A DNA stretch of 63,897 nt, filler included. It is 12 parts of 12 records of this genome, joined end to end, with 100 filler letters (N's around TTAATTAATTAA, not from the genome) between each part and the next. Parts side by side here need not be neighbours in the genome. Positions count along the whole stretch, not along the records: positions 24,751 to 38,030 come from SRR15195285_3218; 11 more parts are not named here. One strand, 5' to 3'. Below the pieces are notes generated by a model. The model worked only from the letters and a program-made list of their open reading frames with translations. It did not search any database and was not told the DNA's origin. Below are positions 9,262 to 38,130 of the stretch, in pieces. The translations under genes were made by a program, and so were the position numbers. The number at the start of each line of letters is the position of its first letter. Within the stretch, counting starts at the first letter, position 1.

Positions 9262-9440
9262 NNNNNNNNNNNNNNNNNNNNNNNNNNNNNNNNNNNNNNN
9301 NNNNNTTAATTAATTAANNNNNNNNNNNNNNNNNNNNNNNNNNNNNNNNNNNNNNNNNNNNCTCTCTCTCTCTCTCTCTCTCTCTCTGTCCTGCGCGCGT
9401 GCGCGCTGTTTCTCCATCCACCCACAACATTTCGTGCCTG

Positions 9441-13432: not shown

Positions 13433-14043
13433 NNNNNNNNNNNNNNNNNNNNNNNNNNNNNNNNNNNNNNNNNNNNTTAATTAATTAANNNNNNNNNNNN
13501 NNNNNNNNNNNNNNNNNNNNNNNNNNNNNNNNGGAGGCAACGATGTGATCGTTGCCCATCGCGAGCCTGAGGCGGTCAGGAAGCCGGCCAGAGGAAGCAT
13601 GTTTCAATCTCGTACTATATAGTAGAAATTGGTGAATAATGATTCATTACAATGATGTAATGAATACGAGATCTTAGGTAGTCGGCTGACAACGGCCAAA
13701 TCATCTCGAATCCTCGATCGGGCGCGGGTTCTGCGGGTGTGGGGGTGCCCAGATGCCGGTAGGCCGTTTAATCAAGGTGTGCCGCGGCATCGAGGCGTGG
13801 AGGTGAGCGTGGAAGCTGCTCTGCTGCTGCGTCGCGGTGCGCCGCCGGGTGCCATTGCGTGTGCCAACCTGCCATGTCGCATGTGCGTGATCTCCAGCAC
13901 GCAGTCGCCGCCCTGCGTCTTCGGTCTTGCGTCTGCCCGGCCTGCCCGTGGCTGGTGCCTATATAGTAGTGTTGTGCCTCTGTGCCATGACGCCGGGCTG
14001 ACCGCGGCGCGGGCGCCAGCTGGCGCAGAGGAGTGGTGAACGT

Positions 14044-17000: not shown

Positions 17001-19203
17001 TTATGGCCAAACAGATCAAACAACTGCATTTGGGTGCGTCAACTGCACATTTGGACGGTTTTCCACGGAGCTAGGTGCTACTGATGACACAGCATGCCGT
17101 GCCTGTCCCGCTGGTACTATCAGCAAAGCAGGTGCTTCGATCTGCATTGATTGCCCTCGTGGATCATACGCTCCGACGGGTAGTGCAAATTGCCAAACGT
17201 GTCCACAAGGGCAGATGGCTACCACTGAGCTGGCAGCCACTGAATGTGTGGAGTGCCAAGCAGGTCAAGTTGCTGAAGTTGCGTCAACTGAGTGCAACTT
17301 ATGCATTCCAGGAAGGTTTGCCCCGCCAGCACAGGGCGCGTGCGGACTCTGTGCCCCAGGATCCTATGTGGAAACTTTTGGGGCTCCTGAATGCGTGCTA
17401 TGCGAAAATGGATACGCCTCCTCTACAGTGGGTGCATCGGCTGTGGGCGTGTGCATCTCGTGCGTCGCTGGCTTTTTTGCAGACGCACGAGTGATGTGTA
17501 CGGGGTGTGCCAAAGGCAAACATAGCCTGGACGTTGCTATGGCATGCGAAAATTGCGAGGTCCGAGACGCATGCATTGGCTATGGGAAATGTTTGAAAGG
17601 ATACGAATCAGATTTTTGTACGTCGTGCTCATCTGGGTTCTTTAAGATGAATCGGCGTTGCCATCGCTGCCCAGACAACTCCGTGTTGCTCATTGTCGTT
17701 GCCATCATCATTTTCTTTCTGGTTGCAATGCTGGTGTTGAAAATGGGGAGCAACTCACGAAAGACCAGCAGCCTCCAAGCATATGGGCAGTCGAGCGTCA
17801 GTGCGAGGCTGAGCGTGCCGCTCAGCATCCTTTGGGTGGAGCTGCAGTTCAACTTACAGTTCTTTGATCTGGACCTCCAGTGGCCATCATTTTTACTGGA
17901 TATTACAACCTTTCTCAAGGCCATTTTGGACTTCAATTGGGCAGCAATGACTGCGCCAGAATGCGCTGTTCGATTTTCTTCGGCAGGACAGGCATTTTTT
18001 GCTCGAACGCTGATCGTCGCGTCAGGGTTGCCGTTCTTCTGCATCGCAATATGCTTGCTGTATGTGGTGTTCAACTCGCTGATTGCGATTCAGTCCCAAC
18101 GCATCTGGCCAGCTTTCGTGCACTTGTTCAAGACTGTACCCCGAGAGACCGCGAATGCCTGCGTGATAGGTTTCACACTCCAATACGTTATGCTGACTAG
18201 GACAGCTGCCGAAGCTTTTGATTGTCGGCCATTAGACCGCGATGGTGCTCCGTGGCGCCTTGATAGCCAGAGAGAGGTGCGATGTGCATTCGGTGGTGAT
18301 TTCTGGTGGCCGAAGATCTTGGTTATCGGAAGTGTTCTAGCTGTTGTCGTCATGTGGCTGCCCCTCATGCTGCTGCGATATCTGCGTCGCAAACAAAGTG
18401 GTGTAATTTTCCGTGGGCGTATGCCTCATATCGCAGCCGTTTACACGGATCTACTGGTGTCTCCCGATGTGCCAAAAGAGTGTCCTGTTGAGTCCACTGC
18501 GGACGGATGCCAACAAGACCCGATGGAGATTGAGCTGGCCGATGAAGCATCATCAGTGATCCACCATGATCGGCACACGCTGACGGTGATGGGTTGGCTG
18601 TTCGTTCGCTTTCGCCCTGCATATTACTGGTGGGAGTTCGTGATCATGGCCAGAAAAGCAGTGCTCACACTCATTGTAGTGTTCCTTGGGACTGCAGGGT
18701 CGGTGGCTCTCAGTCTGACGCTTGGTGGCACTGTACTCACGTTGTTTCTGCAGAGACGCCACGCACCGTTCCGCGAAGATGCGCTGACGTTTGCAGCCGC
18801 GAGGCGTGCTGAAATACGCAGACGAAAGCGAGCCAAAAATGCCCCGTGGGAGAGCCGGCTTCGTCGAGCGTGGCGGCGCGTGAAGGAGAATTGGGATATG
18901 CCGAGCTTGAATGGGCTCCAATTAGTAGCCCTGTCCACACATCTCGTCACGCTCGCTTGCGGGCTCCTGTGTCTCATATCAGGCGACCCGGACAGTGGTA
19001 TTGCTCTAGCAGCCGGGTATGCAAGTCTGTTTGTGATGCTGATCTTCGTAGGCATGGTCATTCACTATATACGGCCACGATGTGGCTCCAAACATGAACA
19101 CAATGTGCGCGGTCAGACCAAGTCGATCCGTTCGAGATCGTCGAGGCGAATTCGACCAGCAGACGAAATGCCTCATGCAGCAAAGCGTAAGCCGTCTAGC
19201 TAG
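14044..19203 (+). CDS. Signal peptide, RCC1-like beta-propeller, ShKT domain, long Cys-rich repeat stalk, multi-TM core
   Basis: Intact 1719-aa ORF. RCC1 repeats (VAAGKDHS, WGVNDWGQLG, WGCNEYGQLGLG); ShKT-like CADLDPTC...C...MVNSCQLTCGLC (15406-~15519); many CxxCxxGx(F/Y) units; C-terminal TM helices with YYWWEFVIMARK. Confidence 0.85.
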   Translation: MPWQRSRRAYLLAAWALLCYSAQPATSASLMDGVLYAWGAEGVLGEPADPDGMPVEVTDLDNAVARVAAGKDHSVVLRSSGSVFTFGSGSRGQLGHGDRAARSAATRVASSLVGSNIALVSAGTYFTTVVKFDSSSALSSEGGPTWQLYAWGVNDWGQLGIGSYSNAVYDTPRSVSSLSSIALSHGGTPATHVAELVSGARHTVAVMRDGRTFGWGANQHGALGQACPAPQSVATPGCVVIRPQELSLGDVRVERAALGLDYSILLSQGGILWSTGRNSAGQLGLGDNGDDRFAFERVHIPGAPPILQVATGREHTLAISAYGQIWVWGCNEYGQLGLGVDYGAIESTPTAVAMHTIAPSVYESTDAAQAAWNALFSSFASDAQSIQAMRITAGDGFSIFVVNSGHTVVGVGRSDSGQLGDSCSYPVLMSINPRRSRCPPSVISGGWQRDTVSDCADLDPTCGTRRDEGHCAITSSNFGFMVNSCQLTCGLCSLAPPVAGLFAGPEGQHAFSLLGGGCGSDFSNHLSEGTASCTCKKCADGSSFIVDSCIPCEAGRFGVPARCPVWCKEWRKEIMCTEYKASSSNCAACPAGRAGEGVGKVGELWCEQCQTGRYSTADGSTECDSCESGKFAETKASTNCQTCGAGRWAAPGSVECTPCTAGRSSAQLAAASIDACIQCPAGTEASPGSVTCEACAVGWADVDMQPASLCIRCAAGRFSAVRSTECTACARGWADLDSNPTTGCTSCTSGRYSLVNSTSCIHCLPGFSDHDVDAATSCAQCAQGLYTSLISSTGPCISCSIGQSTVPLGAVICEDCSAGKTDDDRDPKTSCANCSVGTYSPGGVSTCRDCGDGNLDDDLDPSTPCTTCSAGRFESIVASVPSCVDCPVGRHSPVVAAASVSVCQPCERGFADLDLRAETPCSSCEAGKYAVELASTVCTGCVVGTYSETLEATSAASCISCMPGFSSLVEAASTVDACVPCPRGQYYGQTDQTTAFGCVNCTFGRFSTELGATDDTACRACPAGTISKAGASICIDCPRGSYAPTGSANCQTCPQGQMATTELAATECVECQAGQVAEVASTECNLCIPGRFAPPAQGACGLCAPGSYVETFGAPECVLCENGYASSTVGASAVGVCISCVAGFFADARVMCTGCAKGKHSLDVAMACENCEVRDACIGYGKCLKGYESDFCTSCSSGFFKMNRRCHRCPDNSVLLIVVAIIIFFLVAMLVLKMGSNSRKTSSLQAYGQSSVSARLSVPLSILWVELQFNLQFFDLDLQWPSFLLDITTFLKAILDFNWAAMTAPECAVRFSSAGQAFFARTLIVASGLPFFCIAICLLYVVFNSLIAIQSQRIWPAFVHLFKTVPRETANACVIGFTLQYVMLTRTAAEAFDCRPLDRDGAPWRLDSQREVRCAFGGDFWWPKILVIGSVLAVVVMWLPLMLLRYLRRKQSGVIFRGRMPHIAAVYTDLLVSPDVPKECPVESTADGCQQDPMEIELADEASSVIHHDRHTLTVMGWLFVRFRPAYYWWEFVIMARKAVLTLIVVFLGTAGSVALSLTLGGTVLTLFLQRRHAPFREDALTFAAARRAEIRRRKRAKNAPWESRLRRAWRRVKENWDMPSLNGLQLVALSTHLVTLACGLLCLISGDPDSGIALAAGYASLFVMLIFVGMVIHYIRPRCGSKHEHNVRGQTKSIRSRSSRRIRPADEMPHAAKRKPSS

Positions 19204-21511: not shown

Positions 21512-24262
21512 TCACAGCGTCCGATTTGTTCGGCAGATGATCATTTGCTCCGTCTGGTACTGTACCTTCTGTGTCTCCACCATGACCTCCATAAATTCTT
21601 CGAAGCAAAGCATGCCACGATCGCCTGCCACCTTTGTCGCCGTAGCCTCAAACGCTTGGATAGCTGAGCCGTTGAGCAGCAGCTTCTGCCTCGAACTGCA
21701 GTTCAGCGCCTCCAGGACTTCCGGCACTTGTCTCAACGGCAGCCGATTCAAAGAAACGCCTTCATCTGAAGTCTGCATCTCAGGGCCTCCCTCAGGCAGT
21801 TTTGAAGAGTCTGTGGTGGCAAACTGCTCAAAATAGTGGCGAATATCCCCAACGACTCTATCATCCTCTGCAGCAGTACTCAACAACTGTTCCAGCAAAC
21901 TATCGAGACGGTGTTGCTCGTGATAGCGATCGACTACATAAGCGACCAACAGGTTGACCAACACAACTACAACGCACACGTAGTAGACCAGGAAGAAGGC
22001 GTTAGCAAACCATGGGTGGCCGGACGCAAGCGACATGCCCTCCATCGTGACAATCCAGTTGTTCACAACCAAGAAGTCAAAGAGTACTACCTGCTCCACC
22101 AAAAACTAGGTTACAAAAGCGCCAGACAGGGCAGACATCCCTGGGATCTCAACCAAAACACAGACTGATTTTGCGCAGTTCGTTACCATCGCGCTTCCAA
22201 GATCATTGAAATTGTTTGGATAGTAGTGTAGTGCATCAAAACTTGAGTTATGGAGTACAGGATTTCCCTCATAGGTCTGACCCCCAAACATCAGAATCCC
22301 AAGTTGTGCAAAGAACAGCATGACGATCAAAAGCACCGAGCCCAACCGATTGAAAACTGGAGCCAATTCTGAGAGAGACTGGAAAATAAGCGAGAACTCG
22401 CGGATGTTTGTGAGGACTCGCAGCACCCGTAACGCACGCAGCAAGGTGCAAAAACGAGTCACTCCATGACCGGGACCCACGACTGTGTCGTGGACCAAGC
22501 CTTGTGGCAGGTGCAACATTATCTCACCAGCTACAGCAATGATGGTGATGACTCCGTCGAACTTGTTCCGAAAGGTGGACCAGTACGTGCGCAAGCTCAA
22601 AGTGCTGACCTTCACCAGCATTTCCAAAACGTAAATCACCGTGAAGGCAAGCTCGACTATCGGTATCGCCGTCTTTTGCCACCCGGAATCGATGTCGTCC
22701 ATATACACGACTTCGTACATGATGGTGCATGTGTTTATAATGATCACCACCATCATGCATCGCTCGATTTGCATATCGCGCTCCCTTATCGTGCGCCGCA
22801 GACGGTGGCGACTCAACGTGCTGGAAACCTTCGCTCCCGACGTGCTTCCATTCCGACTGTCGTCCATGACTCCGTTTGCATTGCTGCAATTCTGCACCGG
22901 GGGCTCTGTCGTACCGATTGATGCAGTAGCTTGATGCAGTCTTTGCATCGTTGCCTGGTTACCCAATGCGGCATCCTGCGCGACTGACAGCAGTCGACAC
23001 AGCTGCCTGAATTCATCGCAATTGATGTATTCATCGCCGTCCGCATCGATCATCTGAACTGTGTGCTCGATCACGTCTTCGTCAAGCTGCTGACCGTGCC
23101 AGTCGAGTGTGCGAACGAATTGTTTGAAGACACTGATAGGCAATGATCCGGTAGTCGCCGCGGTCGACCCACTGGCACTAGGCTCCATTGGCTGCGCACC
23201 TGCAAGAAGCAGCTGAAAAGCTCGGCCCAGTGAATCTTCTTGAACTGCTGTATCTTGATTGACCCGGCTTTCCATCCGATGTTTGTGAGAAGAGTACACC
23301 GATGCGAAGACGAGATTCAGCGATATGAAGATCCCAAACGACGCAAAGGCAATGAACGGCAAGGCAAAGACCCTGTGGTAGCCGTACGCTTCCATATAAA
23401 CATCCGGAAAGTTGGCAGTGGTAAGGATGGCAAAGGTTGACAGCAACGCTCGCGGTAACGTGCCGTAGTACGCCGACTCGTCGCACTCGGGAGGCTGACA
23501 GAAATTCCGAAAGAACGCAAACATGACCGCCCCAAACCAAAGAACGAAAAATGTAATCAGACACAGCATAGCCTTAATGTCCCAGAGAACTTCTACGGTG
23601 AGCAACATGCGCTTGCGCAAAGATTTGCTGCCGATCGTGCAAATCACTGGGCGCAAGATGGGTGCCAGCCGCCACGTCCGACCGTCAGACAAAGCGAAAG
23701 CGTGTTTGGCTCCCATGTCGAAGACACAGTCAGCCGCGCCAACCAGCACGACGAGCAGGCGAACTTTACGCCACGGATTGCCCCAAAAGTCGGCTTTGCC
23801 CCGATAGCACCGCATCACCACTAGCTCGGCCAATAATGCGGCGTAGCACGCAAGATCGACGCAGCCAGACGTGAAGGTTGGAAGAAGTGGCATCCCGCTC
23901 ATTGGGACTGCTTGGCCATCTGGAGAGGCACACGCCGTGTGGTAGCACCACGCTGGTCGCTCGAAGAACGATAGACCAAGGTATATGGCTGCAACTATCT
24001 GCATCGGCAGCCATGTGTACACTCGAAATGCCAACGTCTTTCTCGCCAGATCCTCCTGGCCATGTTCGACGTCGTCTGCTGTTGTCCGCAGTGGCTCGTA
24101 GAAACGGTCCAGGTCTCCAGTGGCCATCCGACCCACCTGTGACGCGACCGAGGTGACGTGGCGTAGCGGGTTGAATGAAGTCACCACGGCCGTTGCCGCT
24201 GCGGACTGCAGGGCTACGGTGCGGTTGCGTTCCCGCAGCGTGAGCGCGGGGTGTGGTTCCAT
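21512..24262 (-). CDS. TPC: Two-pore cation channel (TPC)
   Basis: Two 6-TM repeats; FFERPAWC; pore 1 LTTANFPDV; linker EF-hand DADGDEYINCDE; S4 LLRALRVLRVL; NNFND; pore 2 LVVNNW after removing intron 22091-22186. ATG at 24262; the 3' end may include a further intron. Confidence 0.92.
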
Positions 24263-25235
24263 AACTTTTCTCAACAGTGAGCTCGCGCAGTTTGGTGCTC
24301 AAGAATTGCGTTGTCGGACCACACGCTACGCAAACAGCGGACGCCGGCGATTCAATGAGGCAGCCTACTCACACTGCGGTGCTAGGCCGCGACTTTCCCC
24401 AGCTAGGCACCCAGCAGCGGCAGCCCCACAGCTTTTTACGCGCACCATCGCGACATTCGTGCGCACGAGTTCCCGCCCGGGGGCGGCGGCGGCCGCCGCG
24501 GCGCCCGCGCGCGGGGGCCGGCGCGCGTGTGCATGTATATACACGTACGCGTATATGCCGCGCACGCACGCGCTATGGTACACAGTACTACTCGAGTAAG
24601 TAAATTTGGGTCGCCGGTGCGCCCAGAAATCAGGTACCCCGGGAAGTGCANNNNNNNNNNNNNNNNNNNNNNNNNNNNNNNNNNNNNNNNNNNNTTAATT
24701 AATTAANNNNNNNNNNNNNNNNNNNNNNNNNNNNNNNNNNNNNNNNNNNNCCCCCCCATCAAGTTGTACAGAGTACACGCGGGACTTTGGATTCCTCAAG
24801 GTTTGATTCGATTGATGGACACCCACACGCAACTTGCGTGGCGAGGTTGAACCTGAAGGGGTTGCTTGGCAACCCCGCTGGCACCTGGCGTGCTCATACT
24901 AGACAAAAAGCGGGATTTACTCCTCGCTGTTGTCCCGAGTCCAGAAGGATCCGTCGTTGATGCTACACGCCTTAGGGATGGCGCAGACACCGGAGTCAGA
25001 CCCCGTGCGCGATGCGCTTTTTAAACTAGACGACATACCAAACGTGAGGGTGATGGGCCTGTTACGCGCGCGCGCGGGTCATTCAGATCTACCTGGTAGA
25101 TCTGATTTGATCAAGAATGGTCGAAAATGAAGACAAAAAAAGCTGTACTATCGCCGAATTTTACCTCGTCAGAAAGCTCTCGCCGAGAGGTTTCTGGCAT
25201 GGTGAGACTTGCCTGTGGGGCGCCCCGGCTCCGGC

Positions 25236-28200
25236 TCAAAGAATTCGATCAGGTTTTGCCGTCCTCTCTGCGCGCGATTCTGGCATCGAAACGGGGCGCT
25301 GCTCTTGCGCATAAATATCCTTCAGCTCCTCATGAAGGGCTTCCTCCTCCTTCCACTTTCTCCTCAGCGTCTCCTGGTGCTTCTCTCTCTCAAGTGCGTC
25401 CATAGCCGTAAGAGGCTGGACAAACTCGTCGCGCGCAATTTGGGCACGGAAAGCCTCGGCGCGGGCGTCGAAGATAGCCTGGCAGCACCATCTCATGGCG
25501 GCTGATGTCTTTTCGTCCCGGTACTGCGACTCTTCCACAATGTCATTCAGGCGTGTCCTTGCCTCACGGAAGACAAACAGCGCTGTTGTCCAGTAGATCG
25601 AAAGCGCTGGGGAGCAACAAAACCGGTGAGTTTGTGCAGGCACAAGCGTCTCTATAAGCTCTGGGGACGTACTACTTTGGTCTGCAAACTTAACGAGCAC
25701 CGCCCAGAGCGGCAGAAGTACCACAGCACCTTTGCCCGCAAACTTCCGCGCAGCCTGTTGTTGCCAGGAGGAGCCGCTATCCTGCGCCCGCATTTGCCGT
25801 TTCTCTTCCTGTTCCTCGCCTTCTCGCTTCCTCTGGTCTTCCAACGTGACGACAATCAGGTAGCTGCGTCGAACAAACCCAGGTTATCGTTGGGCATTGT
25901 TGAGCTCTGGGTGGGCAGGCTTACAGTTCTTCGACGCGGATGAAGTCTTTCAAAGACAGCGCAGTGTGTCCGCACACGGCGTGATGCACCCAGTCGATCT
26001 GAGTGGCAGCAACACAGACTCAGAGTGTTCTCGGCACCAAACGAATCCAGGGACGCGCACCATGTAGGCAAACTCCTTAAACGGAAAGAAGCTGCTGATG
26101 AAGCGGCCCCATTGGTTAAGCCGCCCTGCGTCGGTGCAGACGTGTCAACTCATGTGGGCCGTGCACAAAAACTTTGTGCCGTACCACTTTCAAGCAGCCA
26201 TCGTCGACGATGTATCGTGTCATCCGCGTAGCCATGCATGATTTGAAGCGCTGACTGGTGGCAGTATGCGCAGAATGCTACCGAGAAAAAACGTAGCACT
26301 GCACCACCACACTCGTTGAGGCTGGTTATTTCTTTACGTTCGCACTGGTTGATCAGCTTCGTTCGGGCCCAAAGGAACAGAAACGCCGCGTACATGGCAA
26401 TGGACACCAGCTGCATGACGAGCTTGAGTCGCCGTGCCTTGTGCAAATAGATCCATCTGTCCAAGACGGTCTGGAGCAGCAGTGCGGTGATATACACAAT
26501 CAGTCCAACTGGTGTTGCCTTGGCAGCATCCTGCGCACCTTGCAGGTCTCTGGCGCTCAACGAACTGCCAAGGCCCTTTACCAGGCCAATGATGTCGAGT
26601 GGTGGCTGCTTCTCACTAAACGTTGCCATGCACAATTCATGCCTCCCGCAAACATTCGGATCACGGTGCCAAGGCGAACTTCCAGGTGCGGTTTTGAAGG
26701 TTGAATCCAGATTCCATCTGGGGCTGACTCCAAGTGTCAATCCATTGTCATCGTCGCCAGCAGGTGACACAGTCAGTGTGACTCCATATTGCTGGTGTGC
26801 TGTCATGGCAGAATACTGCGCCTGGCCGATGTCTAGCTGCTTGGAGGCCAGCCTTGCAAACGCGGGGAAAGAAAAGCCTAAGAACAAGGACTCCGTCTTG
26901 TTTGCTCCATTCGACAGCTTCTTGCTGTCACGGAAACGAATTCACTTCAGCGTCGCGCAAAACAGCCTGCAGTTTGGGCGGGGACGTACAGCTGTTGGAT
27001 GTCATTTGGCCGCAGTCGCAAAACTTGAGGGTGAACGATGCCATCAGCGTCTCTGACACTAGTATCAGCTCTGACAAATGTAACCTTGAGATTGGCCTCC
27101 ATCCGAGGGGTCTCAGCCTCGGATATTGTATCAAGATGAGCACGAAGTCGCTGACGAGCTGCTGTCTCCTCCCAGCTGCGCACAGCAGACAAAGCGTTAG
27201 CATAGACAACGGTTGCACCTCGATGAAGCGCACCTCGCTTCAGCCGGTTGCCCAATCCGAATATTGGCAATCTGCTGCGGCCCATCGCTTAGGTCATATC
27301 CCTGGGACTTCATTCTTGCCTGCACTGCCTCCTTGCCCGTGCTGCTAGCGAGCGTCGAGGTGCACGTTTTGTCGGCGGAAGTCCACGTGCAATGGGTGAC
27401 ATCATCTACCGGGCACTGGTCTCCGTACCGCGGCCCTGAGCTCTCAGACTGATGGAGGAATGACGAGCAGAAGGCGTCGCTGCCACTATAGTCGTTGGTG
27501 TAAAACTTCTGTAAACTGTCCACGCTGTCGGGCCCGCTGTCCCACGAATCGCTAGGCGAGATTTTCGTTGCAGACGATCGATACACTGTGTACGTACAGC
27601 TCCCGCTCGGGCACTGTTCCATTGTGATATCGAGCTGGACCTCGACGCTCGTCACATCATTCAGTTGCATCTCCATTCCGAGATTGAGGTACAGCCATGG
27701 TGCGAGCAGAACACAAAGCAACTGCGCGCAGAGCATCTTTGTGTATGTGTCAACGCCTTTTCTGTGCCAGCTCGAACGCTTCGGCTCAAATGGCCAGCCC
27801 GAAAACAGTAGATGTCTGAGTGCTTTGAATCGCCTGAGGCTCAAGCCAGGTTGTTGTTCTGATATGAAACCATTAAACCAGGCCCGAACTTTGGAGGAAA
27901 ACCACGCGCGTGTTTTGCGTCCACGTTTTGGCAACGGCGGCAAGCCGCTCAATCTGTCTTTCAGCATTTCTGCATCCATCTGCAGGGCTTCGATAATGCC
28001 ATCTGCGAGAGGCGATTCTTGCCAACCTCGTGTCAATGGATCCCAGTAGCCTCGAGTCCACACAGAAGAAATGCCCCAGTGGTGCATGCCTGGTAGGCGC
28101 AGCTCTGATTGGTGAAGGTACCATACAAGGTCGGTGAAAACATCAACATCTTGCTGCTCGATCGACTTGTACAAGGCCGCTACAACACACCGGTCGAGCG

Positions 28201-31200
28201 TAGATGACGAGACCGTCTGCTGGTAGATCGCCCGTCCAGCTCTCTCCCGTACGGGCGCAGGTGCGTCTACGTGTGCCAAAAACAGATACGCATATCCCTC
28301 AGGCCCCACCACCTTCCGAGTCCGTCGGCCTCTAACTATTCCCGGGAGCTTAGCCAGCTTCTGATAAACATTCGCCGGTGTGACCCACTCGCCCTGGCGA
28401 ATGCATCGTCTCTGATGCAACAGCAGCATCAGCAGCAGAAACCAGTCCCAAACAGCATTTGCATTTATATCTATGAAACCGTCAAACTGACGCAGGTTAA
28501 CGCCGTAGAAGCCCTCATCTCCTGCATTCCAGCTAGGACTGGCCGGCCAGGCCGACATAAACTTGACGAAGATGATTCTGACCTCGACCAGCGTGATGCA
28601 AAATTGCCAGAAGTGAGCCTGCTGCCTTGTGGTACGGAACTCTTGCATGGCAACTGACTCAGAGTCGATCTGAGTCGCCGGCACCACCCCGCAATAAGCG
28701 AACCAGGCAAAGAACACGAAGAATGACGGCGTGTCCATGTGGACAACAAAGTTGACGCTAAGCGCAACAACACAAAGCACTGCTGTCTGCCCATAGCAGG
28801 CTAGCAGGGCGGCGCGAACCACGTCTGCCAGCCTTCCATCAAGCTGCTCCACCAGTCGACCAAGAAGGGGCTGGCCCTTGACGAGTTCCTTCACGGCTGC
28901 GTCGAGGCCTGACGCGCTGGGACCAGCATGCTTTGGCGATTGGGATGTGAACCATGGCTTAGTCGCCATAGTGGGGACAAACGAATGTGGGCATCCGCTG
29001 GCTCGGCTTTGCAGCCACCCAAGCAGAGCTGCACCTACTCCCCGCTCACTCGTTTGTGTCTGCAGCCAGCGTCGGTAATGGCGCTGAATCGAGCGGGCAG
29101 CATGGTCAAGGCGCGTCCCTGTCGGAGATGTGCTATGTGTCCGTGCGTCCGTACTCGTAAGCAGCCCTGTGAAGTAGAGTACCGCTTTGTCCCCGAACAT
29201 CAAAGCTTGTGTGCTGCCAAATGCTTCACAAAGATCCGAACGCTGACCATCGTAAGCCTTCGTACGTTGGAGATTAGCACACTGTTCGTCACGTGCGTTG
29301 AGATAGTTAGAACGATCCTCGGATCCTTGCTCGTCGTCACGCTGTTTCGCTTCTCTCTTCTCCGCCTCTAGAGCAGATCGGTACGTCTTTGTCTTCAGAA
29401 GAACCTTCAAGCAGATCGCGATGCACAAGCAAATGCCGGCTAGCCATATGCTAATCATACTTTTAACACTGTCACTTCGAAACTTGTGCACGCCCATCAC
29501 GCTCTGCCAGCTGCCTACGTTGCAGATATCGCTTTTCTTGGAGCCGTCTGCATTGAGGCAATTGCTGAATATCGGCATCTGGAACGCACATTGGACCAAC
29601 AGTGAACCTGTGGCAAAAGCCATCAGGGCTGCGATGCGCCCATCCGTGTGTTCAATCCGCCTGTGATCGTGCAGAAGCACTATTGCCGTGTACACGTAAG
29701 TCAGCGACAACAAATCGTTGTCAAACGGTTGGTAGGAAGCAAAAGCAAGGGATGCCACAAGCAATGTGACGACTCCGTCGTACACAGACAGCACACGTAT
29801 GCCCACAACGTCTGCAACTCTTTGCGATATCGACCGCTTAGCTGTTGCAGCCCCAAGCGGATCCTCGGTCTCTACCGTCTGATTACTCAAGACCTTCTTC
29901 CTTCGTCCTTTGAGCTTTTCAAATCTTTGCTCGCAATCGAGCTTTCCAGGAAACAGCAGATCGTCTTTATAAAATTTATGGTTTTCTGCCCGCAGGTACA
30001 TGTCATCCAGCAGGTGCGATTCATTGCTGGTGAAGTTCCGTGTATTCCAGCGTTCGGCGTGCTGTCCCAGGTCCTGCTCCAACGCCCACTTCGTTCCAAA
30101 CCGAACGCGTGCGAACGTACTGACCACGAACAGCACCAAACCATCGACAAGCAGCTTCCAGCCAAACATGTCCTCGGACGCTAACCAGTGACGCCAAGTG
30201 TGTGCGTTAGCTGCGCTGCTGCCGGCGCCGCATGGTTCGAAGCCAAGGCCTAACATGTATCTGACCACCAGCATAGCAGCCAGCATGCGGGAGGTGAAGC
30301 ACCAGTTTTTGGGGTCGTATGATGCGAAGCGTTGCTCTCCGATAAGAGACGGCGTGTTGAACCAGAACAGCAGCACTGCGTACGTGCCGCACATGATGTC
30401 ACCGCCTCCACCTGTGTCCGGCGCGCCACGCAAGCAGATTCCAAACAGAAATGCGAGGTAACACGTCGACCTTTGAACGTTTGCAAGTGTGATGTAATTC
30501 TCGATCGTGCGCCAATATTGTGCGTTCGACTCTGAAACAGATTCTGATGGTGGTTCTGGAACCGGTTCTGGTTCGGCTGTGGAATACGCTGTGGATGCAT
30601 ATTCTGCATCCAGAGCACGTTCCGTAGCCACCGTCATTTTATTCAGGGCCTTCCACTGACTGTAAGCATTGAGTATTAGAATCGCGATGGCGAGCAAAAC
30701 CAATATGCTTGATGACCCAGTGATGCTAAACGAGCTGCTGATCAGAAGCGTCGTTCCCACCAGGTACCGATTGATGGACGTGTATTGTGCGTCACTGTGC
30801 AACCCACGGTGCGTTCCTGTGACCAGATCGCAATCACGTGTGCTGCTGCCCAACGCTGTTAGCCAATGGACGTCAACGCGAAGCGCCAGTCGCGCCTGCT
30901 GAATTTCGCCGTGCACTGCCAATCCCAGCGTCACAAGGACAGGAGCCAGAATCGCCCAGTCTGCGACGGACGCCAATGACGAGGTACCTGTTGTTGCGCC
31001 CACCAGCCAAGGAGCACAACAGTACCACCATCGCACAGCCACATAGTACATCCCTTGGGCGGCTCCAACGGGCACAGACGCATTGTCCAGCTCGTCTGTT
31101 TTGTTGAAATGCTGCCCCGCACCAAACCACGTCGGCCCAGTCGATTCGGCCCAGCAAGTACCGGCAGTACCAGTGTTGCCGGAGCCAAACGAGAAGGAAG

Positions 31201-34200
31201 CAATGAAAGAAGACGAAGACCATGGGTCCGTTTTCACCAGGCGAAGCAATAACAACCAGGTCAGGTGCATCACGGCGACAAAGAACACGACGCCGATCCA
31301 ATTTGCTGGCACGAAGCTCCATGTCCGGACATGGCGAAGCGAATCATGCCGCCACTTTGCCATTGGCCAACCGTTCACATCCTGCTCACGACGCTGCGAC
31401 CCGTCCAGTCCAGCAATGCACACAAACACACCAGTGCAAAAGTAAACACCGCTGGCGATGGAGCCGCTCCATGCGCCGGCAATGATCATGCATGCGGCTG
31501 TGATCAGGTCGCCAAGTTGTGACTGCGTAATCACCCAGAGCGGTAGCTGCGCGGTCGACGGCCTGCGAATCTGGCTGCCGCGATACAACCACACAACAAC
31601 GAAAAAGGCAATTGCGTCCGGCCAGATGCTGGCCCATGGTCCGGGCGGAATGTTGGACGTGTCTTCCACCGCAAAGATTCGCAGCAGCTTCACAGTACAG
31701 TTAACGTTTTGTTCATCAATGAGGCGCGTCATATTGCGCAGTTCTTGGCAATCAGCATCGACCATCTGCGCCAAGTACTTCGCGCCGATCGTCACCCCCA
31801 GCCACACAATTGCAAGGACAATGATGCCGTCAATCCACTGCGTTCCGGTATGAACAGGCTCGGCTTCGGACTCGTGCTCGGGCTCAGGCTGGGGCTCGTG
31901 CTCGTGCTCAGGTTCAGGTTCAGGCTCGGGCTCGGGCTCAGGCCCCATCGCAGCTAGCAGTTTGTCCAGCGTCGGTCTGTCCAGCGTCTCCCTAACGCTG
32001 CAACTCACAATGCTCACCAGTGCCACGACCACAGGCACACCAAAGGGAGTCCAGCACTGGCGTAGAGTTGTCAGAAAGTCGGAATGGCCGTCATGCGCCG
32101 CACACGCTTCGTTTGCTGAAAGTCCAATGACATTTGCCCATCGAACAGCGGCTGCAGTGAGCCATTCGGGGCGACCCATACACTGCCACGAATACAATGC
32201 TAGCACCACGATCAAACAATAAAAGAGTGAGACACGGCCAGCCTTGGCCTGCCCATCCGTGGATGAGGTAGCACCCCACAATGCCACTGTAAGGTACAGT
32301 GCGTGTAGGAGATCAGCCTTCTTCTCAGCGGATTGGAAAAAAGACGGATTCAATCCGCTGATCAGCAACGCAGCCCACAACGGGTAGAAAGCACAACGCC
32401 TAATCCAGATCACAAGCAACTTTGCTCCCTTTATGCCGAGCTTCTCAGCTGCCGCTACAATCTCTGGGGACACCTCTGTGTCAGTGGCCTGCGAATGCTG
32501 CTTTGAATCCCGCTGCCGATTGTCAGCCTCCTCCGGGCCGTCCCTCGAAGCTACGTCCGCACTCTCCACAGACGTGACCATTCCCGCGGCAACTGCGCTC
32601 TTGAGCTGCTCCTGGTCCGTGGCATTGGAATCGCGGAGGGTCCGTGGCAGCTCAAATGTCACCGCATCTTCGGGCTCGGGCTCGGGCTCGATTGTGGCTT
32701 CGGGCCCCAAGTGACCATCGACAGGTGGATGCTCGGGCTCAGGTTCGGGCTCGGGCCCCGTCGCAGCTAGCAGTTTGTCGAGCAGACTCTTGGACAGATC
32801 AGGATTTTCGGAGAGGTTCTCTAGCGTTTCCCACAGCTCTTTAGCCGAATTGCGCAACAGACTACGCTTTGCTTCTGCCCATTGCTCGCCCTGTTTCAAA
32901 ATAGCCTCTACGCGTGGTCTTAGCTGTGCGATTGCGAGTTCCTTCGATGCTGTGCCTCCACTATCACGCATCCGCAGCAGCAGTTTTGCTGGCTCAGCAA
33001 TGCCGGAGCGGAGCTCGTCAATGCTAAACTCCTCGGCGTTGTCTAGCGCCGCTTTGACGTCCTCCCAGGCCATTGCCTGCTTACTTACAAGCTGCTTCAT
33101 CTTAGGACGCAAAGACGCGATGGCGAAATTTCTCGCAGCCGGGCTGCTGGGATGTTGCAGGCGCTTGAAAAACGCTTCAGGATCTTCTACTGCAGACTGC
33201 ACCTCGTCCAAGCTATCCAACGGCTCTAGAGCACCACGAATTTCATGCACCGACAAGTCCAGTCCTTGTGCCCCGAATAAAGGCACAAGCCTTTTGCTCA
33301 CAATTGTCTTCAGCAGCCGCAGGGCCAAATCTGCAGGCTGCTCGATGCCTGCCTGCAGCTCCTCAAGTCCGGCGCTGTCCACTGCAGGAAGGATAACCTC
33401 CCATCGCAGGCTACGCTCCTCTATCTGGCGCTGCAACTTCGCCTTCACACTGTTCCGGGTCAGCTGCTGTCGTGCGATGAACGCTTCTGGATCACGCATC
33501 ACGTCTTGGAGTTCGCGAATATCGTGAATTCTGTTGAGCGCTTCGCGAACGACCGTTTCGTCGAGACCCCGTTTCTTGGCACTTCTCTGGATAGCGTCCC
33601 GCATCAGCTGCAAACAGAGATCCTTCGGTGCTTGCCGCGCTTGGCTGAAGACGGCCTGAAGTTCCGACAAGCTGTTCTGTCGTCGAAGATAATCACTGAC
33701 CTCTCGGCGCGTGCTATCATCGCCGATATTCTTCATCACCTCCAGTTTTTCAATCTTGCTTGCAAGTGCGTTGCGGGTCGCCTTTACGCACAGATCTTTC
33801 GGCTGACGCAGGGCTTGCAGCAACTCTGTGCTTGAGAGTGAAGCTATGTGCGGCTGCAGATCGTCCCACATGATGCCGAATGGCGCTATGAGGGGTTTGA
33901 CAACCGGTGCCACCTGGTCGTTGATGATGGTAGTCTTTGTCTGGCCAAACTTTTTCATCACAGCCGTCCGTGCAGGTTCTATAAGGCCGTACAAATAGCG
34001 CACAGCTCTCGAAGATGCTTTGAACCTGGATGCCGATGCCGTTGCGACACGGGCGGTCCAGTCAGCAACCACACCCTTCGGATCCACTGCACCGGCAAAG
34101 CCAGCGAACGCCAGGCACTGGATAATGAATCGTCCACCGAACTTGCCGAACAGTGGTTTGCCTAACTTTGAACCGCCGCCAATTGCAGCGGACACCAGCC

Positions 34201-37200
34201 AGTGCATGTCACACCAACGCGTTGCGTTCTGTTTGACGTCCACCAGATCGCCCCAGGACCCTGAGGCCGAGCCAACGTCCGATGGGCACCGGTCATCCCA
34301 CAGTGTGTGCGTGCAGTCGTAGAGGTATTGAAACAATATCAAGGCTGCCACGATGCAGAATGTTGTGACCCACGCACACCGCAGGCACGCACACCGCAGG
34401 CTTCGTTGCGACTTGGTTGCATAGGTGAGACAAAATAGGTAGATGGGCACGACCATAGCCAGCAAACACTGCAATGCCATGATGAGCACCAGTGCGCATG
34501 CAGCAGACAGCGGTATGGTGGGCAGCTGGCTCCTTTCATCCCGTCGGTCCACCATCGCATCATTCTGGAGTGCAGAACCTTGCTTTCCATCAATCGCAGC
34601 CAAATCGTCCAGCTTCGGCTGCGACTGTGGCTGCGGTTCTGGCTGCGGTTCTGGCTGCAGATCCAGCTGCGGATCTGGCTGCAGATCCGACTCGAGCACA
34701 AGCTCGAGCTCGGAGCCGATGAAAAATTCGAGCAGCTTTCCGACGTCACTTTCATCAAGTCCGGGCTGCTCACGTTTGTACGCGCGGGCCACGCGGTCAT
34801 GCAAACCGGCCAAGTCTCGCCTTTCTTTGGCAGTCGGAACGCACTCGTACGAATCCTCCGTCTGCATCAATTTTTCCTCACAAGTCCTATCAGAATGGAA
34901 GACCGGCATAAAGCCTTGGATGTTGAAAGCCCAGTGGTGGTCCGCAACCTCTGTAGGATGCCGCCGCCCGAAAATGTATCGGTCGGACCCACCGGTTGGT
35001 CGATGATCCTGCAAGTACGCCTCCAGGAACTGGTGCTGCAAAAGTGCCGCGCAACAGGAAAGCAGTGCCAATCTAGCACCAATGTTGATAATCAGCTCAG
35101 CATGAAGCACACCTTCAGCTGGAAGGCTGAAGAACACAGCAGCTGTGCCGTTGGTGGGGATGTTGAAACTCAGAACAGCAAAGTCGACAAGCAGATGACA
35201 AGCGATGTATACGGTCAACGGCCACAAACATGATCCGCAAACCGGTGGAGTCATGGCGCTTGACTGCAGGTCGTTGATGTGGTCGGACTGGCGGAGCCAA
35301 AGTACATGCCAGCCAAGAAACCCGGCAGGCAGTAGAAGATATGGAACGTGCAAGAGTGTCCGCGAGGTACCACACGCAACAATTAATGCTGCCACTGCAG
35401 TAAGTTTGATCACAACTATTTTCGCGGGCGAGAACCTATCTCTCTTGCGCACATACTGCATGTGCGAGAACAGTTCCACCCTCCGTTTCGTTGAGCACTC
35501 TGGCTCCGGCTCGACATGTGCAGCGTGCACGAGGGCTGACCCACCGTTCCATATCTCAAAGGCCGCTATGACAAGGGCGACGGCATCGAAAACTGTGTTC
35601 AGCGCGCCCTGAGTGCTCCCGCCAAACCAGTCAGCCGGCCCAACAACGTGTGCCCACCATTCGTCGCCAGGGCGCTTCAAATGGATCATGAAGAGCGCGA
35701 TCACGCCCACAACAAATGGAGCGGTTACCACCACAGCATCGTAGCACCCAAGGCCACCTCGAAGACTGCGCAACGGCAACGTCGCGAGCACAAGTCCCGC
35801 TAGGACAGCTACCCATCCACTTTGGGCACCGCAGACAAGGGCCAAACTGACGCCTGCAAACACATCTCTCCACCCACGCTGCTTGTTGTCGACAAAAGTC
35901 AAGCGGTTCTCCATCCAAAATTCTAGCAGAACATTCTGAGCGTCAGGCAAGGGCAAGCGGTCTTCGTTAATCTTGTGAACCTTGTGCTGAAGGGCTTCCC
36001 GCACCTCAGCTTGAATCTCAGAATCACGGGTTTGTCTTGGGGATTTTTGAAGGGCCAACGAAGCCCGTTTCATGCTCATGCGCGGGCTTAGCATGTCCGA
36101 CAGCTTGGAAACTAGACCGGTGCTCTGAGTAGAGCTACTCAGATACATTTCCTCGGCCTTGGCCTTGGTGTTTGTGTCTCCAACGCGATGGTAATTTTCT
36201 TGCAGCAACGACCAGAGTGAAACTAGCACTAGCAACAATGTGCACAGACACGGCTTTCCAACGGCGCACACAGCAAGCTTGCTTGCCTGCGGCAGATGCG
36301 CCAGGAAATGGTACAGCACATATATAGCTATCAACAGAAACACCAGCAGAACGACGTCCGCAAGAAACAGGGACAAGCTGTCTTGTTGCATGAACGCTGC
36401 AACTAGTACGACGGCCACCAAAAGCGTACCAAGGTCGGCATTGCCTTGCTTTTTATCTGCTTTGTACAACGTCCACGCTATCGGAATGAACGCCATAAGC
36501 AGCGGGAAAAGGGCAAAACTCCAGAGGCAATTTGTGTGGCAAACAAAATCCACGAGCGACGAACAACTCCACATACATGCCTTGATAGTGGGATTGTAGA
36601 ACAACGACATAAATGTAATCATAATCGCTGGTACAGCAAGGTTGAACAGCAAGTCCACCGTTTGTGGCTCGTTCCCAAGCCTCCGCAACTGCCCCTTGCA
36701 ATTTGCGAGTGTGTCTGCGGCAATCATCCAGCGAAGAACCTCCTTTGCGTTCCACGCAGGATATAGAAGCCTCAACCAACGCGGCGCGGAACGGGCATCT
36801 GCTGCAAGATGTGATGACAGGTCGAGGAATTGGAGCATGTGGAGCCAGCTCTCGTTGATTTTGTATGGCACAATGTCCACTTCTTCTGTTGCCCACATCA
36901 CGAACCAGTAGAACGACGTCAATGCCACAAGCACGACGTCAAAGCCAAACCATACCCAGACACCGGAATCGAATGTCGCGGGCCAAGCAAGGTCCACTTG
37001 AAGCACCCCAAAAGCCCACGCCGCCACAGGCGGGGTTGCAACCAGCACCAAAAGCCGCACCACCCCCCACGCAAATGAGTACACTGCACTTCCGCAACTC
37101 TGTCCCGGCATTGGCCGCAGCGGGTGCCACTGAAATCGGTGGGCGCTTGCGAGAGTGGCCGCCCCCAAAGCAATGAATGTAGCTGGCGGAGCATGTCGAT

Positions 37201-37936
37201 AATACGATATCATTGCTGCGCAGAGCACGACCAGCCCAAGACCAAGTAAATGGACCCAGTAATCATGCTCGCGCGTGAGCCCGCATCGTGGCCCGCATTT
37301 AGCTCTAACCACATTTGCTGCCTCTGACAGCCAAAGCGCAGCAATCCACGAGACAGCTGTCACGCACAATAGCAAAACGAATGTCACATGGGCAGCGGCG
37401 CTCCAAATCGTCCGAAGCGAAGCACAGCCGCCGATGAGCATCAGCATTATACCAATGGCACCCACCCACTTCGCATTGGCACGACTTTTGTAGTAGTGGC
37501 GAATCTCAGGCTCAGTTCTGTTGGAGTAAAATCTCGCTACCGCGAATGACTCGAGCTCGCGATCGGCCCCTGTCCGTGGTTCGGGTTCAAGTTGGTTCTC
37601 CTCATCCCCTTGCCTCACACTTACCGGTATGCTCTTGGCATTTTCGGGGGAAGGTTTGGGCCCGCGGAGGTTACTGTCGTTTGGGTCTGAATCCGCGTTC
37701 GATAGGGCGGGCTGGACTGTGACCGTCCGCACAGGGGGGGAGCGGGGGGGAGCCACACCGGGGCCGTCTTCTCGAAGGGGCTGACCCAGCTCCTCGGTGC
37801 GTGACTGCGAAAACAGCCCAGGCGCCTGCCTAACCTTTGGCATGCTGTACGCGCCAGCCTTGACTGAGCTTGAGCTCGCGTTGCCGCCTGGGCTCCGGGC
37901 TCCAGGCTCCGGGCTCCAGGCTCCGGCTCCAGCCAC
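25236..37936 (-). CDS. PIEZO: Piezo-family mechanosensitive channel, ~4,100 aa, atypical architecture
   Basis: Exons 37936-27234, 27175-26990, 26924-26185, 26125-26061, 25998-25925, 25863-25673, 25606-25236 (all GT-AG, total 12330 nt, in frame). Hallmarks: DTYT TM, VLDRWIYL..ARRLKL, QSALQIMHGY, anchor FPFKEFAYMIDWV...TALSLKDFIRVEELY, inner helix LSIYWTTALFVFREAR, CQAIFDAR, EEEALHEELKDIY. Start uncertain (GTG 37936; first ATG 37843; may be truncated). Confidence 0.88.
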
Positions 37937-38130
37937 GACAGGTTGGCCACTTGGCCTCGGCCACTTTCGTCGCTCCCGGAGCGGCCGCGCGCGGTTCGAC
38001 CGCCGCCGCCGCGGGTTGCCGCCCGGCGCCNNNNNNNNNNNNNNNNNNNNNNNNNNNNNNNNNNNNNNNNNNNNTTAATTAATTAANNNNNNNNNNNNNN
38101 NNNNNNNNNNNNNNNNNNNNNNNNNNNNNN

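What the first reader, a model, noticed from the sequence alone, without database searches (positions are those of the whole stretch)
26600..27661. Domain-permuted Piezo: the cap (CED) sits inside the last blade unit instead of on the pore helices
Seen: after removing introns 27176-27233 and 26925-26989, a ~310-aa soluble domain lies between the DTYT helix and the VLDRWIYL helix, i.e. the first extracellular loop of the last THU, a short loop in known Piezos. Established (recalled by eye): its segments track the Piezo CED in order: NDVTSVEVQLDI ~ NQPIDVTVTLKL; IANIRIGQPAEASWE..ARQRLRAHL ~ IVTAQIEGSSGALWR..SRAQMKQEL; LKVTFVR ~ FTWNFQR; IQQLKKLSNG ~ RRQLAQLLEG; SLFLGFSFPAFARL ~ SVVIPHLFPKYIRA; MATFSEKQPP ~ MVIFSDKVSP. 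In the Piezos I know, the CED connects outer and inner helix and controls gating and inactivation. Inference: the cap was transposed onto the blade, implying a rewired force-to-gate coupling. The ORF track hides this because introns split the gene.
Basis: partly seen in the sequence, partly recalled or inferred. Interest (0 to 1): 0.93.

Follow-up and report, generated by a model that had tools for sequence, protein, structure and literature searches.

The report
Piezo channel with blade-borne ectodomain, no cap
A very divergent Piezo-type gene of a marine protist (probably a picozoan) has almost nothing where the channel's outer cap normally sits, and instead carries a conserved 345-residue outer domain four helices earlier; whether that domain is the moved cap could not be tested here.

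Summary
The gene lies on the minus strand of a 13.3-kb contig (24751-38030). It is a Piezo: Pfam THU9_anchor scores 48.6 bits against a cutoff of 28. An RNA contig confirms intron 27176-27233 exactly. Intron 26925-26989 is inferred. A 345-residue hydrophilic stretch with 8 Cys lies between a hydrophobic helix (27677-27748) and the helix that profiles map to TM34 of the last blade unit. Three other assemblies, one labelled Picozoa, also show its last third joined to TM34-36. Downstream, the last two hydrophobic segments are only 27 residues apart, or 5 in a spliced RNA form. No cap-sized domain fits there.

The claim that the insert is the cap domain (CED) has no tool support:
- Pfam Piezo_cap gave no hit in any piece, nor in a read-through of parts 1 and 3.
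- PDB and ESM Atlas searches found nothing relevant.
- The AlphaFold2 model was unusable (pLDDT 37).
- No canonical Piezo sequence could be fetched for a profile test.

The anchor, pore helices and blade are equally undetectable, so this negative result is weak. I rate it a new variant of a known kind, interest about 0.6.

The parts
27234..38029 (-). Exon A: a 3598-codon open frame, cut at its 5' end by the contig end. It holds the blade helices, a long PE-rich and repeat-rich soluble region, the TM33-like helix and the first part of the insert.
   Evidence: ORF 27197..38074. Hydropathy peaks. Weak PF23188 THU_Piezo1 hit at residues 3081-3215, 20.9 bits, below the cutoff of 27.2.
27677..27748 (-). 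Hydrophobic helix before the insert (TYTKMLCAQLLCVLLAPWLYLNLG). Read as TM33, the first helix of the last blade unit. The basic stretch KRSSWHRKG precedes it.
   Evidence: Hydropathy peak at 3432-3448 of the model; coordinates. It follows a group of four peaks (3082, 3103, 3143, 3188) and about 215 soluble residues. No profile hit of its own.
27234..27676 (-). Insert part 1, about 148 residues with 6 of the 8 Cys.
   Evidence: Only weak chance-level matches: Beta-lactamase2 E 0.012; the N-terminal domain of ferulic acid esterase E 0.1.
27176..27233 (-). Intron 1, 58 nt, GTGCGC...GCGCAG.
   Evidence: RNA contig X16 record 11 joins 27175|27234; sequence.
26990..27175 (-). Exon B: insert part 2, 62 codons counting the split ones.
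   Evidence: RNA contig X16 record 11 covers 27009-27175. That variant carries 2 synonymous and 2 non-synonymous changes and an in-frame 3-nt insertion.
26925..26989 (-). Intron 2, 65 nt, GTACGTCC...GACAG. Inferred.
   Evidence: It restores the frame. Its first 8 bases equal those of the RNA-supported 66-nt intron, and its size lies within the 58-66 nt range. No RNA contig bridges it. Alternatives are listed.
26519..26924 (-). Insert part 3, about 135 residues. It holds the conserved blocks LGFSFPAFA, QQYGVTLT and DPNVCG.HELCMATFS.KQPPLDII.
   Evidence: Alignment A3 with P0001, P0004 and P0003. Identity to P0003 (labelled Picozoa sp. COSAG04) is 90 of 132 here. RNA contig X16 record 10 covers 26688-26882.
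26207..26524 (-). TM34-TM36 of the last blade unit: the only part of the gene that scores above a curated Pfam cutoff.
   Evidence: PF24874 E 9e-13; 9uoy_A 1867-1957; Atlas score 0.90. Identity to P0003 is 97 of 111.
26126..26184 (-). Intron 3, 59 nt, GTACGG...CGACGCAG. Inferred.
   Evidence: All three relatives lose similarity right after ...RRWLLESGT.
26037..26087 (-). Anchor-like stretch FPFKEFAYMVRVPGFVW: a loose form of the Piezo PF..E......W motif.
   Evidence: Seen in the sequence. There is no profile match to the anchor half of PF24874. The motif as a family feature is named in a figure legend of PMC12124754.
25686..25736 (-). Outer-helix-like hydrophobic segment GKGAVVLLPLWAVLVKF, after a K/E-rich linker.
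   Evidence: Hydropathy peak at 3994-4010. Covered by X18 and X16 RNA contigs and an X1 DNA contig. The label rests on position and recall, not on a profile hit.
25607..25672 (-). A 66-nt in-frame, stop-free optional intron inside the loop between the last two helices.
   Evidence: It is spliced out in X16 record 9. The tool reports this as 69 skipped with 3 letters between; I read that as the GTACGT donor plus one base change. It is retained in the X18 oligo-dT contig 25545-25787 with 0 differences. Sequence.
25569..25604 (-). Inner-helix-like hydrophobic segment LSIYWTTALFVF, followed by a charged helical tail. The stop codon is at 25236-25238.
   Evidence: Hydropathy peak at 4034-4050. The X16 variant has 3 of 3 synonymous changes in this exon. 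The AlphaFold2 model is all-helical but at pLDDT 55.

Best explanation
This is a very divergent Piezo-family gene of a marine or estuarine protist, probably a picozoan.

Shown:
- The usual cap position, between the last two membrane helices, holds only a short loop of 27 residues, or 5 in a spliced form.
- A conserved 345-residue ectodomain with 8 Cys and a conserved N-x-T site is inserted in the outward-facing TM33-TM34 loop of the innermost blade unit.

Inferred:
- In a Piezo-like trimer the three ectodomains stand next to the central axis.
- They act as a blade-borne lid over the pore entrance.
- Blade motion would therefore move the lid directly rather than through the pore helices.

The origin of the domain is unresolved. 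I put about 40% on descent from the canonical cap by duplication and deletion. Otherwise it is a new acquisition after loss of the cap.
For: Family membership and position: PF24874 scores 48.6 bits against a cutoff of 28, but only after the insert, on profile positions 40-135. The same residues align to PEZO-1 TM34-36 and fall in Atlas THU9_anchor clusters at 0.90.

Topology: hydropathy shows a group of four peaks, then one helix, 345 hydrophilic residues and three helices. Basic residues flank the cytoplasmic ends of both bordering helices. The insert has 8 Cys and an NKT sequon, which is NRT in P0003.

The gene is real and expressed: intron 1 is spliced in RNA, and RNA contigs from 3 runs lie on the gene.

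Not a misassembly at the TM34 end: P0001, P0004 and P0003 come from 3 other assemblies, and all join insert part 3 to TM34-36.

Conservation: identity to P0003 is 90 of 132 in the insert part and 97 of 111 in TM34-36.

No room for a cap downstream: one open frame (25239-25883) holds both terminal hydrophobic segments. An X1 DNA contig (25616-25942) and an X18 RNA contig (25545-25787) cover it without a break.

Plausibility of a lid role: in known Piezos the cap contacts extracellular blade loops, and cap-blade coupling matters for gating (abstract of PMC7021530; passages of PMC12951647). THU9 lies 'below the cap' (passages of PMC12337661).
Against: No tool supports the anchor, outer helix, inner helix or C-terminal domain labels. 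Pfam and PDB gave no hit for the last 295 residues, and Foldseek on a pLDDT-55 model gave only noise.

The two terminal hydrophobic segments are short, about 13-17 residues, which is unusual for pore helices.

Nothing shows that the ectodomain folds, forms a trimer or reaches the axis. AlphaFold2 gave pLDDT 25-30 over it.

No PF12166 signal appeared in any piece, nor in the read-through of parts 1 and 3.

Intron 2 and the intron between exon D and the last open frame are not confirmed by RNA.

Function is untested.
Confidence: 0.5

Rival explanations
1. One reading: the insert is the canonical cap domain (CED), moved from between the pore helices into the THU9 loop. It keeps the CED fold and still forms the trimeric cap.
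For: The cap position is empty, and a domain of cap-like size sits four helices upstream on the same, outward-facing side of the membrane.
Against: PF12166 gave no hit in 3 insert pieces, nor in the 387-residue read-through holding parts 1 and 3. phmmer found no Piezo hit for the pieces. When exon C or its 4-sequence profile hit PEZO-1, no second match fell on that protein's cap. The Atlas gave no usable hit for insert residues 7-139. If the anchor and pore helices, usually the best-kept Piezo parts, are unrecognisable here, motif-level likeness to a vertebrate cap would be surprising. Short colinear blocks are easy to find by eye.
Confidence: 0.4
2. The cap was simply lost, and the THU9-loop domain is an unrelated lineage-specific ectodomain, for example for adhesion, ligand binding or prey sensing, with no lid role.
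For: No similarity to the cap was detected by any tool. Part 1 gives a borderline match to the N-terminal domain of ferulic acid esterases (E 0.1, 47 residues). Large extra loops are common in divergent protist membrane proteins; this last point is general knowledge.
Against: The esterase match is not significant, and Pfam does not back it. The insert sits on the blade unit nearest the pore. It is conserved at 68% identity with a picozoan relative.
Confidence: 0.3
3. The helices flanking the insert are the true outer and inner pore helices. The order would then be canonical, and what follows would be an extra Piezo-like tail.
For: The last 295 residues have no Piezo profile hit. By eye, the helix before the insert looks somewhat like the later outer-helix-like segment (SSW...LL.P.W..L).
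Against: The helix after the insert, and the two after it, match THU9 TM34-36 above Pfam's cutoff and align colinearly with PEZO-1. The by-eye likeness is not above chance: score 24 against a shuffled mean of 21.9, reached by 29% of 500 shuffles.
Confidence: 0.05
4. Artefact: a misassembled contig, a wrong gene model or a decaying pseudogene.
For: The window is a string of metagenome-type contigs. Positions 26883-27008 are covered by no laid contig. Intron 2 and the intron after exon D are only inferred.
Against: Exon A carries the four-helix group, the bordering helix and insert part 1 in one open frame. RNA links part 1 to part 2. Three other assemblies link part 3 to TM34-36. Base changes in the RNA variant are 5 of 7 synonymous, and its length change is in frame.
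Confidence: 0.05

Closest known systems
Animal PIEZO1/PIEZO2 and C. elegans PEZO-1 (solved structures; 9uoy_A was the only Piezo family hit here)
   Same: It is a very long protein with about 40 hydrophobic segments, and the last ones fall in groups of four. TM34-36 are recognisably homologous. After them come an anchor-like stretch, two hydrophobic segments and a charged helical tail, in that order.
   Different: No domain lies between the last two helices: 27 or 5 residues where a cap would be. A 345-residue ectodomain sits in the TM33-TM34 loop, where the Pfam THU9 profile leaves fewer than 40 positions for TM33 plus the loop. The blade, anchor, pore helices and C-terminal domain are not detectable by HMMER.
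Protist and plant Piezos (Trypanosoma cruzi TcPiezo1/2, moss and Arabidopsis PIEZO)
   Same: These are divergent Piezos of unicellular or non-animal lineages. TcPiezos share under 19% identity with mouse Piezos yet keep the fold (passages of PMC12124754).
   Different: In that paper's figure legends, TcPiezos keep the order TM34-36, anchor, outer helix, cap, inner helix, C-terminal domain. This gene does not.
Engineered PIEZO1 cap mutants and cap-blade crosslinks (Lewis and Grandl 2020, PMC7021530; abstract read)
   Same: They address the same question: how the cap is coupled to blade and pore.
   Different: Those are point changes, chimeras and crosslinks in a canonical channel. Here the ectodomain is covalently part of the blade, and the pore helices are joined by a bare turn.

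Membership tests
Piezo family (Pfam PF24874, PF23188, PF12166) | Profile match to the last blade unit (THU9, TM34-36) | tested here: met
   PF24874 E 9e-13, 48.6 bits against a cutoff of 28. PEZO-1 9uoy_A E 0.00097. Atlas THU9_anchor clusters at 0.90.
Piezo family (Pfam PF24874, PF23188, PF12166) | Blade built of repeated four-helix units, about 36 helices | tested here: inconclusive
   68 hydropathy peaks merge to about 40 segments, and the last ones are grouped in fours. PF23188 scores only 20.9 bits, below its cutoff of 27.2. phmmer of the 3610-residue ORF finds no Piezo chain.
Piezo family (Pfam PF24874, PF23188, PF12166) | Anchor with the PF..E......W motif after TM36 | tested here: inconclusive
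   Profile positions 136-238 of PF24874 are unmatched. A loose motif, FPFKEF...FVW, lies at about the expected distance.
Piezo family (Pfam PF24874, PF23188, PF12166) | Cap domain between the outer and inner pore helices | tested here: not met
   27 residues (unspliced) or 5 (spliced RNA form) separate the last two hydrophobic segments, all within one open frame. No PF12166 hit.
Piezo family (Pfam PF24874, PF23188, PF12166) | Trimeric, mechanically gated cation channel | not testable with these tools
   Needs expression and patch clamp, or a structure.
Piezo cap / CED (PF12166; beta-rich fold of the solved caps) | Profile similarity to PF12166 | tested here: not met
   No hit at E up to 10 for the insert pieces or for the read-through of parts 1 and 3. 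Exon B could not be put in the same frame, and hits above about E 0.1-0.25 are filtered out.
Piezo cap / CED (PF12166; beta-rich fold of the solved caps) | Fold similarity to solved caps | tested here: inconclusive
   AlphaFold2 on exon C plus one relative gave a mean pLDDT of 37, and 25-30 over the insert, so no fold search was worth running on it. The full spliced insert could not be handed to the fold tool.
Piezo cap / CED (PF12166; beta-rich fold of the solved caps) | Flanked by the outer and inner pore helices | tested here: not met
   It is followed by TM34-36 of THU9.
Piezo cap / CED (PF12166; beta-rich fold of the solved caps) | Extracellular, between two membrane helices | tested here: met
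   Hydropathy, basic residues on the far side of both bordering helices, 8 Cys, and a conserved N-x-T site. This is inference from sequence, not an experiment.
Ig-like N-terminal domain of ferulic acid esterases (considered for insert part 1) | Significant sequence match | tested here: not met
   Best PDB match E 0.1 over 47 residues, and E 0.43 in the read-through. No Pfam family.

The most novel reading that the evidence does not exclude
A natural, non-circular domain permutation in Piezo, fixed in Picozoa. The cap would have left the pore helices, probably by duplication and deletion, and now hangs from the first loop of the innermost blade unit, still forming the lid over the pore. The 66-nt optional intron would give isoforms with a 27- or 5-residue pore turn. 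That would be a natural experiment showing that the cap need not be covalently tied to the pore helices in order to gate.
Probability: 0.35. Interest if true: 0.85.

Novelty: new variant of a known kind. Interest (0 to 1): 0.62.

Why it matters
Current Piezo models give the cap a gating role. According to the abstract of PMC7021530, subdomains of the cap set inactivation kinetics, their flexibility is required for mechanical activation, and electrostatic contacts couple the cap to the blades. PMC12951647 (passages) shows that cap-blade contacts differ between species.

A natural Piezo whose pore helices are joined by a bare turn, with a large conserved ectodomain built into the innermost blade unit, would make a direct test possible. 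One could ask whether a lid must be wired through the pore helices, or whether a cap is needed at all.

It would also be a Piezo from Picozoa, a lineage known from single-cell genomes (PMC8599508; search listing only). Three full-text searches listed no paper describing a Piezo with the cap outside the pore helices. That is not proof that none exists.

Tried and rejected
- Long relatives: the search for homologous proteins on residues 3050-3610 of the big ORF (1985-6318 aa) and on exon C against longer proteins (462-2000 aa) found nothing.
- The search of protein representatives on exon C gave 2 hits. P0001 is a real fragment. P0002 is a 4132-aa junk repeat and was dropped.
- The metagenome scan gave 3 loci, L001-L003. 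All three share only the scanned peptide pattern (45% identity over query residues 151-192). I checked L002, found that nothing more is shared, and dropped all three.
- The Atlas gave no usable hit for the insert.
- AlphaFold2 on exon C plus P0001 gave pLDDT 37, and on the last 208 residues pLDDT 55. Foldseek on the latter gave 10 matches, all with E above 3 and none a Piezo. These are meaningless.
- The test for an internal duplication (helix before the insert against the outer-helix region; stretch after the insert against the inner-helix region) was at chance level.
- No whole genome is held for this window. PDB sequences cannot be fetched.
- Earlier notes of this scan held nothing on this gene.
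- Read cover: no laid contig covers 26883-27008, nor most of 25943-26244. This says nothing either way.
- Complex prediction was not used, because without alignments a result would not have changed my odds.
Full report
WHAT THE WINDOW IS. The 63,897-base window is a chain of contigs joined by N44-TTAATTAATTAA-N44 spacers; there are 22 N runs, in 11 pairs. The finding lies in the contig 24751-38030. One gene fills nearly all of that contig on the minus strand. It starts as an open frame of 3610 codons that runs off the contig's 5' end (27197-38074) and ends at the stop at 25236-25238.

IS IT A PIEZO? Yes, but a very divergent one. Pfam PF24874 (Piezo THU9 and anchor) matches residues 140-245 of the ORF 26153-26941 at E 9e-13, 48.6 bits against a curated cutoff of 28. 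phmmer aligns the same 100 residues with C. elegans PEZO-1 (9uoy_A 1867-1957 of 2442; E 0.00097), and a 4-sequence profile does the same. The ESM Atlas places residues 135-263 in clusters named for that Pfam family, with a best score of 0.90. Nothing else in the protein is detectable:
- The blade gives only a sub-threshold PF23188 hit (20.9 bits against 27.2).
- The 3610-residue ORF finds no Piezo chain in the PDB.
- The last 295 residues find nothing in Pfam or the PDB.

CHECKING THE OBSERVATION. A 255-nt contig from metatranscriptome run X16 joins 27175 to 27234, skipping 58 nt with GT..AG ends on the minus strand. The second intron (26925-26989) restores the frame. It is 65 nt, and it begins GTACGTCC like the RNA-supported 66-nt intron further on. 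No RNA contig bridges it. One search lists 66 frame-keeping GT..AG pairs. By my reading, the unbroken RNA contigs over 27009-27175 and 26688-26882 leave six, which differ by a few residues. With both introns removed, the protein reads as follows:
- a group of four hydrophobic peaks, then about 215 soluble residues;
- one helix (27677-27748);
- 345 hydrophilic residues (8 Cys, one NKT sequon, mean hydropathy -0.51);
- three helices, which are the Pfam-matched TM34-36.
Pfam's match starts at profile position 40 right after the insert. The family profile therefore leaves fewer than 40 positions for TM33 plus its loop, so the loop is short in the family and 345 residues long here. Basic residues lie on the far side of both bordering helices. 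Together with the cysteines and the sequon, that places the insert outside the cell or in a lumen; this is inference.

IS IT AN ASSEMBLY ARTEFACT? Unlikely.
- Exon A carries the preceding four-helix group, the bordering helix and insert part 1 in one open frame.
- RNA links part 1 to part 2.
- Three other assemblies link part 3 to TM34-36. P0001 and P0004 are ENA contigs of 1074 and 687 bp, with 88% and 93% identity. P0003 has 77% identity and is labelled EP01045 Picozoa sp. COSAG04.
- All three relatives lose similarity right after ...RRWLLESGT, where I place intron 3.
- Against P0003, the insert part keeps 90 of 132 residues and TM34-36 keeps 97 of 111. The blocks LGFSFPAFA, QQYGVTLT and DPNVCG.HELCMATFS.KQPPLDII are the best kept.
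- The X16 RNA variant differs by 7 base changes in the exons it covers, 5 of them synonymous, and by an in-frame 3-nt insertion.
- The only stretch of the insert with no independent cover is 26883-27008.
The P0003 label suggests the organism is a picozoan or a close relative. The COSAG assemblies are those of PMC8599508, of which I saw only the search listing.

WHAT LIES WHERE THE CAP SHOULD BE. After TM36 come, in order:
- an inferred 59-nt intron;
- a stretch with a loose form of the Piezo anchor motif (FPFKEF...FVW, 26037-26087);
- an intron whose donor I could not fix (5 single-intron candidates, all using the acceptor at 25864);
- a K/E-rich linker;
- a hydrophobic segment (25686-25736), 27 residues, and a second hydrophobic segment (25569-25604);
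- a charged helical tail of about 110 residues.
Both segments and the loop lie in one open frame. An X1 DNA contig (25616-25942) and an oligo-dT RNA contig of X18 (25545-25787, no differences) cover it without a break. In X16, an RNA contig skips most of the loop. The tool reports 69 nt skipped with 3 letters between. I read this as a 66-nt intron (25607-25672, GTACGTCC...CCCCAG) plus one base change. That intron is in frame and free of stops, so both forms could be translated, with a 27-residue or a 5-residue turn. Either way, no cap-sized domain fits there. One caveat is important: the labels 'anchor', 'outer helix' and 'inner helix' rest on order, hydropathy and recalled resemblance, because no profile or structure search recognised them. 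Both hydrophobic segments are also short.

IS THE INSERT THE CAP? This could not be settled.
- PF12166 (Piezo_cap) gave no hit at E up to 10 for the insert pieces. It gave none for a 387-residue read-through in which parts 1 and 3 share a frame and stops are read as X.
- phmmer against the PDB gave only chance-level hits: ribosomal protein L3 at E 0.89 and the N-terminal domain of ferulic acid esterase at E 0.1.
- When exon C hit PEZO-1 through TM34-36, no second match fell on that protein's cap.
- The Atlas gave nothing for insert residues 7-139.
- AlphaFold2 with a 2-sequence alignment gave pLDDT 25-30 over the insert.
- The full spliced insert could not be handed to the Pfam, PDB or fold tools. 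No canonical Piezo sequence could be obtained.

Weighing it. Against: short colinear blocks are easy to find by eye. It would also be odd for the cap to keep vertebrate-like motifs when the anchor and pore helices, usually the best-kept parts of a Piezo, are unrecognisable. The Pfam negative is itself weak, because that same library sees almost nothing else in this protein. I put homology at about 40%.

HOW IT MOST LIKELY WORKS (inference). The protein would be a Piezo-like trimer in which the pore helices are joined by a bare turn. The innermost blade unit carries a disulfide-bonded ectodomain next to the axis. In solved Piezos, THU9 lies below the cap (PMC12337661, passages), and the cap touches extracellular blade loops (PMC12951647, passages). 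Cap-blade coupling and cap flexibility matter for gating (PMC7021530, abstract). A blade-borne domain could therefore act as the lid and be moved directly by the blade. The rivals are listed with their odds: strict transposition, an unrelated ectodomain on a cap-less channel, canonical order with an extra tail, and artefact.

NOVELTY. Three full-text searches and passages of two papers on Piezo diversity (PMC11283329; PMC12124754) turned up only the canonical order. I rate the finding a new variant of a known kind. The architecture is well supported. The origin and role of the domain are open.

Noticed in passing
whole window; spacers at e.g. 24651-24750 and 38031-38130: The window is not one piece of DNA. 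It is about 12 contigs joined by N44-TTAATTAATTAA-N44 spacers, so genes on different contigs are not shown to be neighbours.
   Followed up: yes
25607-25672 (minus strand): A 66-nt in-frame, stop-free intron lies inside the loop between the last two helices. It is spliced out in one RNA contig (X16) and retained in an oligo-dT RNA contig (X18). Two isoforms with a 5- or 27-residue pore turn are possible; DNA carry-over in the RNA library is not excluded.
   Followed up: partly
22106-24298 (-), 38079-43979 (-), 57044-60226 (+), 9310-13476 (-): Other contigs in the window also carry ion-channel-type genes. They are an Ion_trans pair with EF-hands (two-pore-like), a TRP-like protein with DUF285 and EF-hands, an OSCA/TMEM63-type protein (RSN1_TM and RSN1_7TM), and a VWA_N/VWA/Sushi/WW protein that recalls calcium-channel alpha2delta subunits by recall.
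   Followed up: no
about 31800-34200 (minus strand), residues ~1330-2060 of the big ORF: The Piezo ORF holds a soluble region of about 600 residues between membrane segments. By eye it contains repeated helical modules of about 45-50 residues, and it has PE/PEPE runs that give a spurious Trypan_PARP hit. Its side of the membrane and its role are unknown.
   Followed up: no
14002-19203 (+): A 1733-codon ORF combines RCC1-like repeats with Ephrin_rec_like and NCD3G cysteine-rich modules. This is an unusual pairing.
   Followed up: no
27058 (exon B): The X16 RNA variant has an in-frame CTG insertion and two amino-acid changes within a few codons of each other in insert part 2. This suggests a tolerant surface loop there.
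   Followed up: partly
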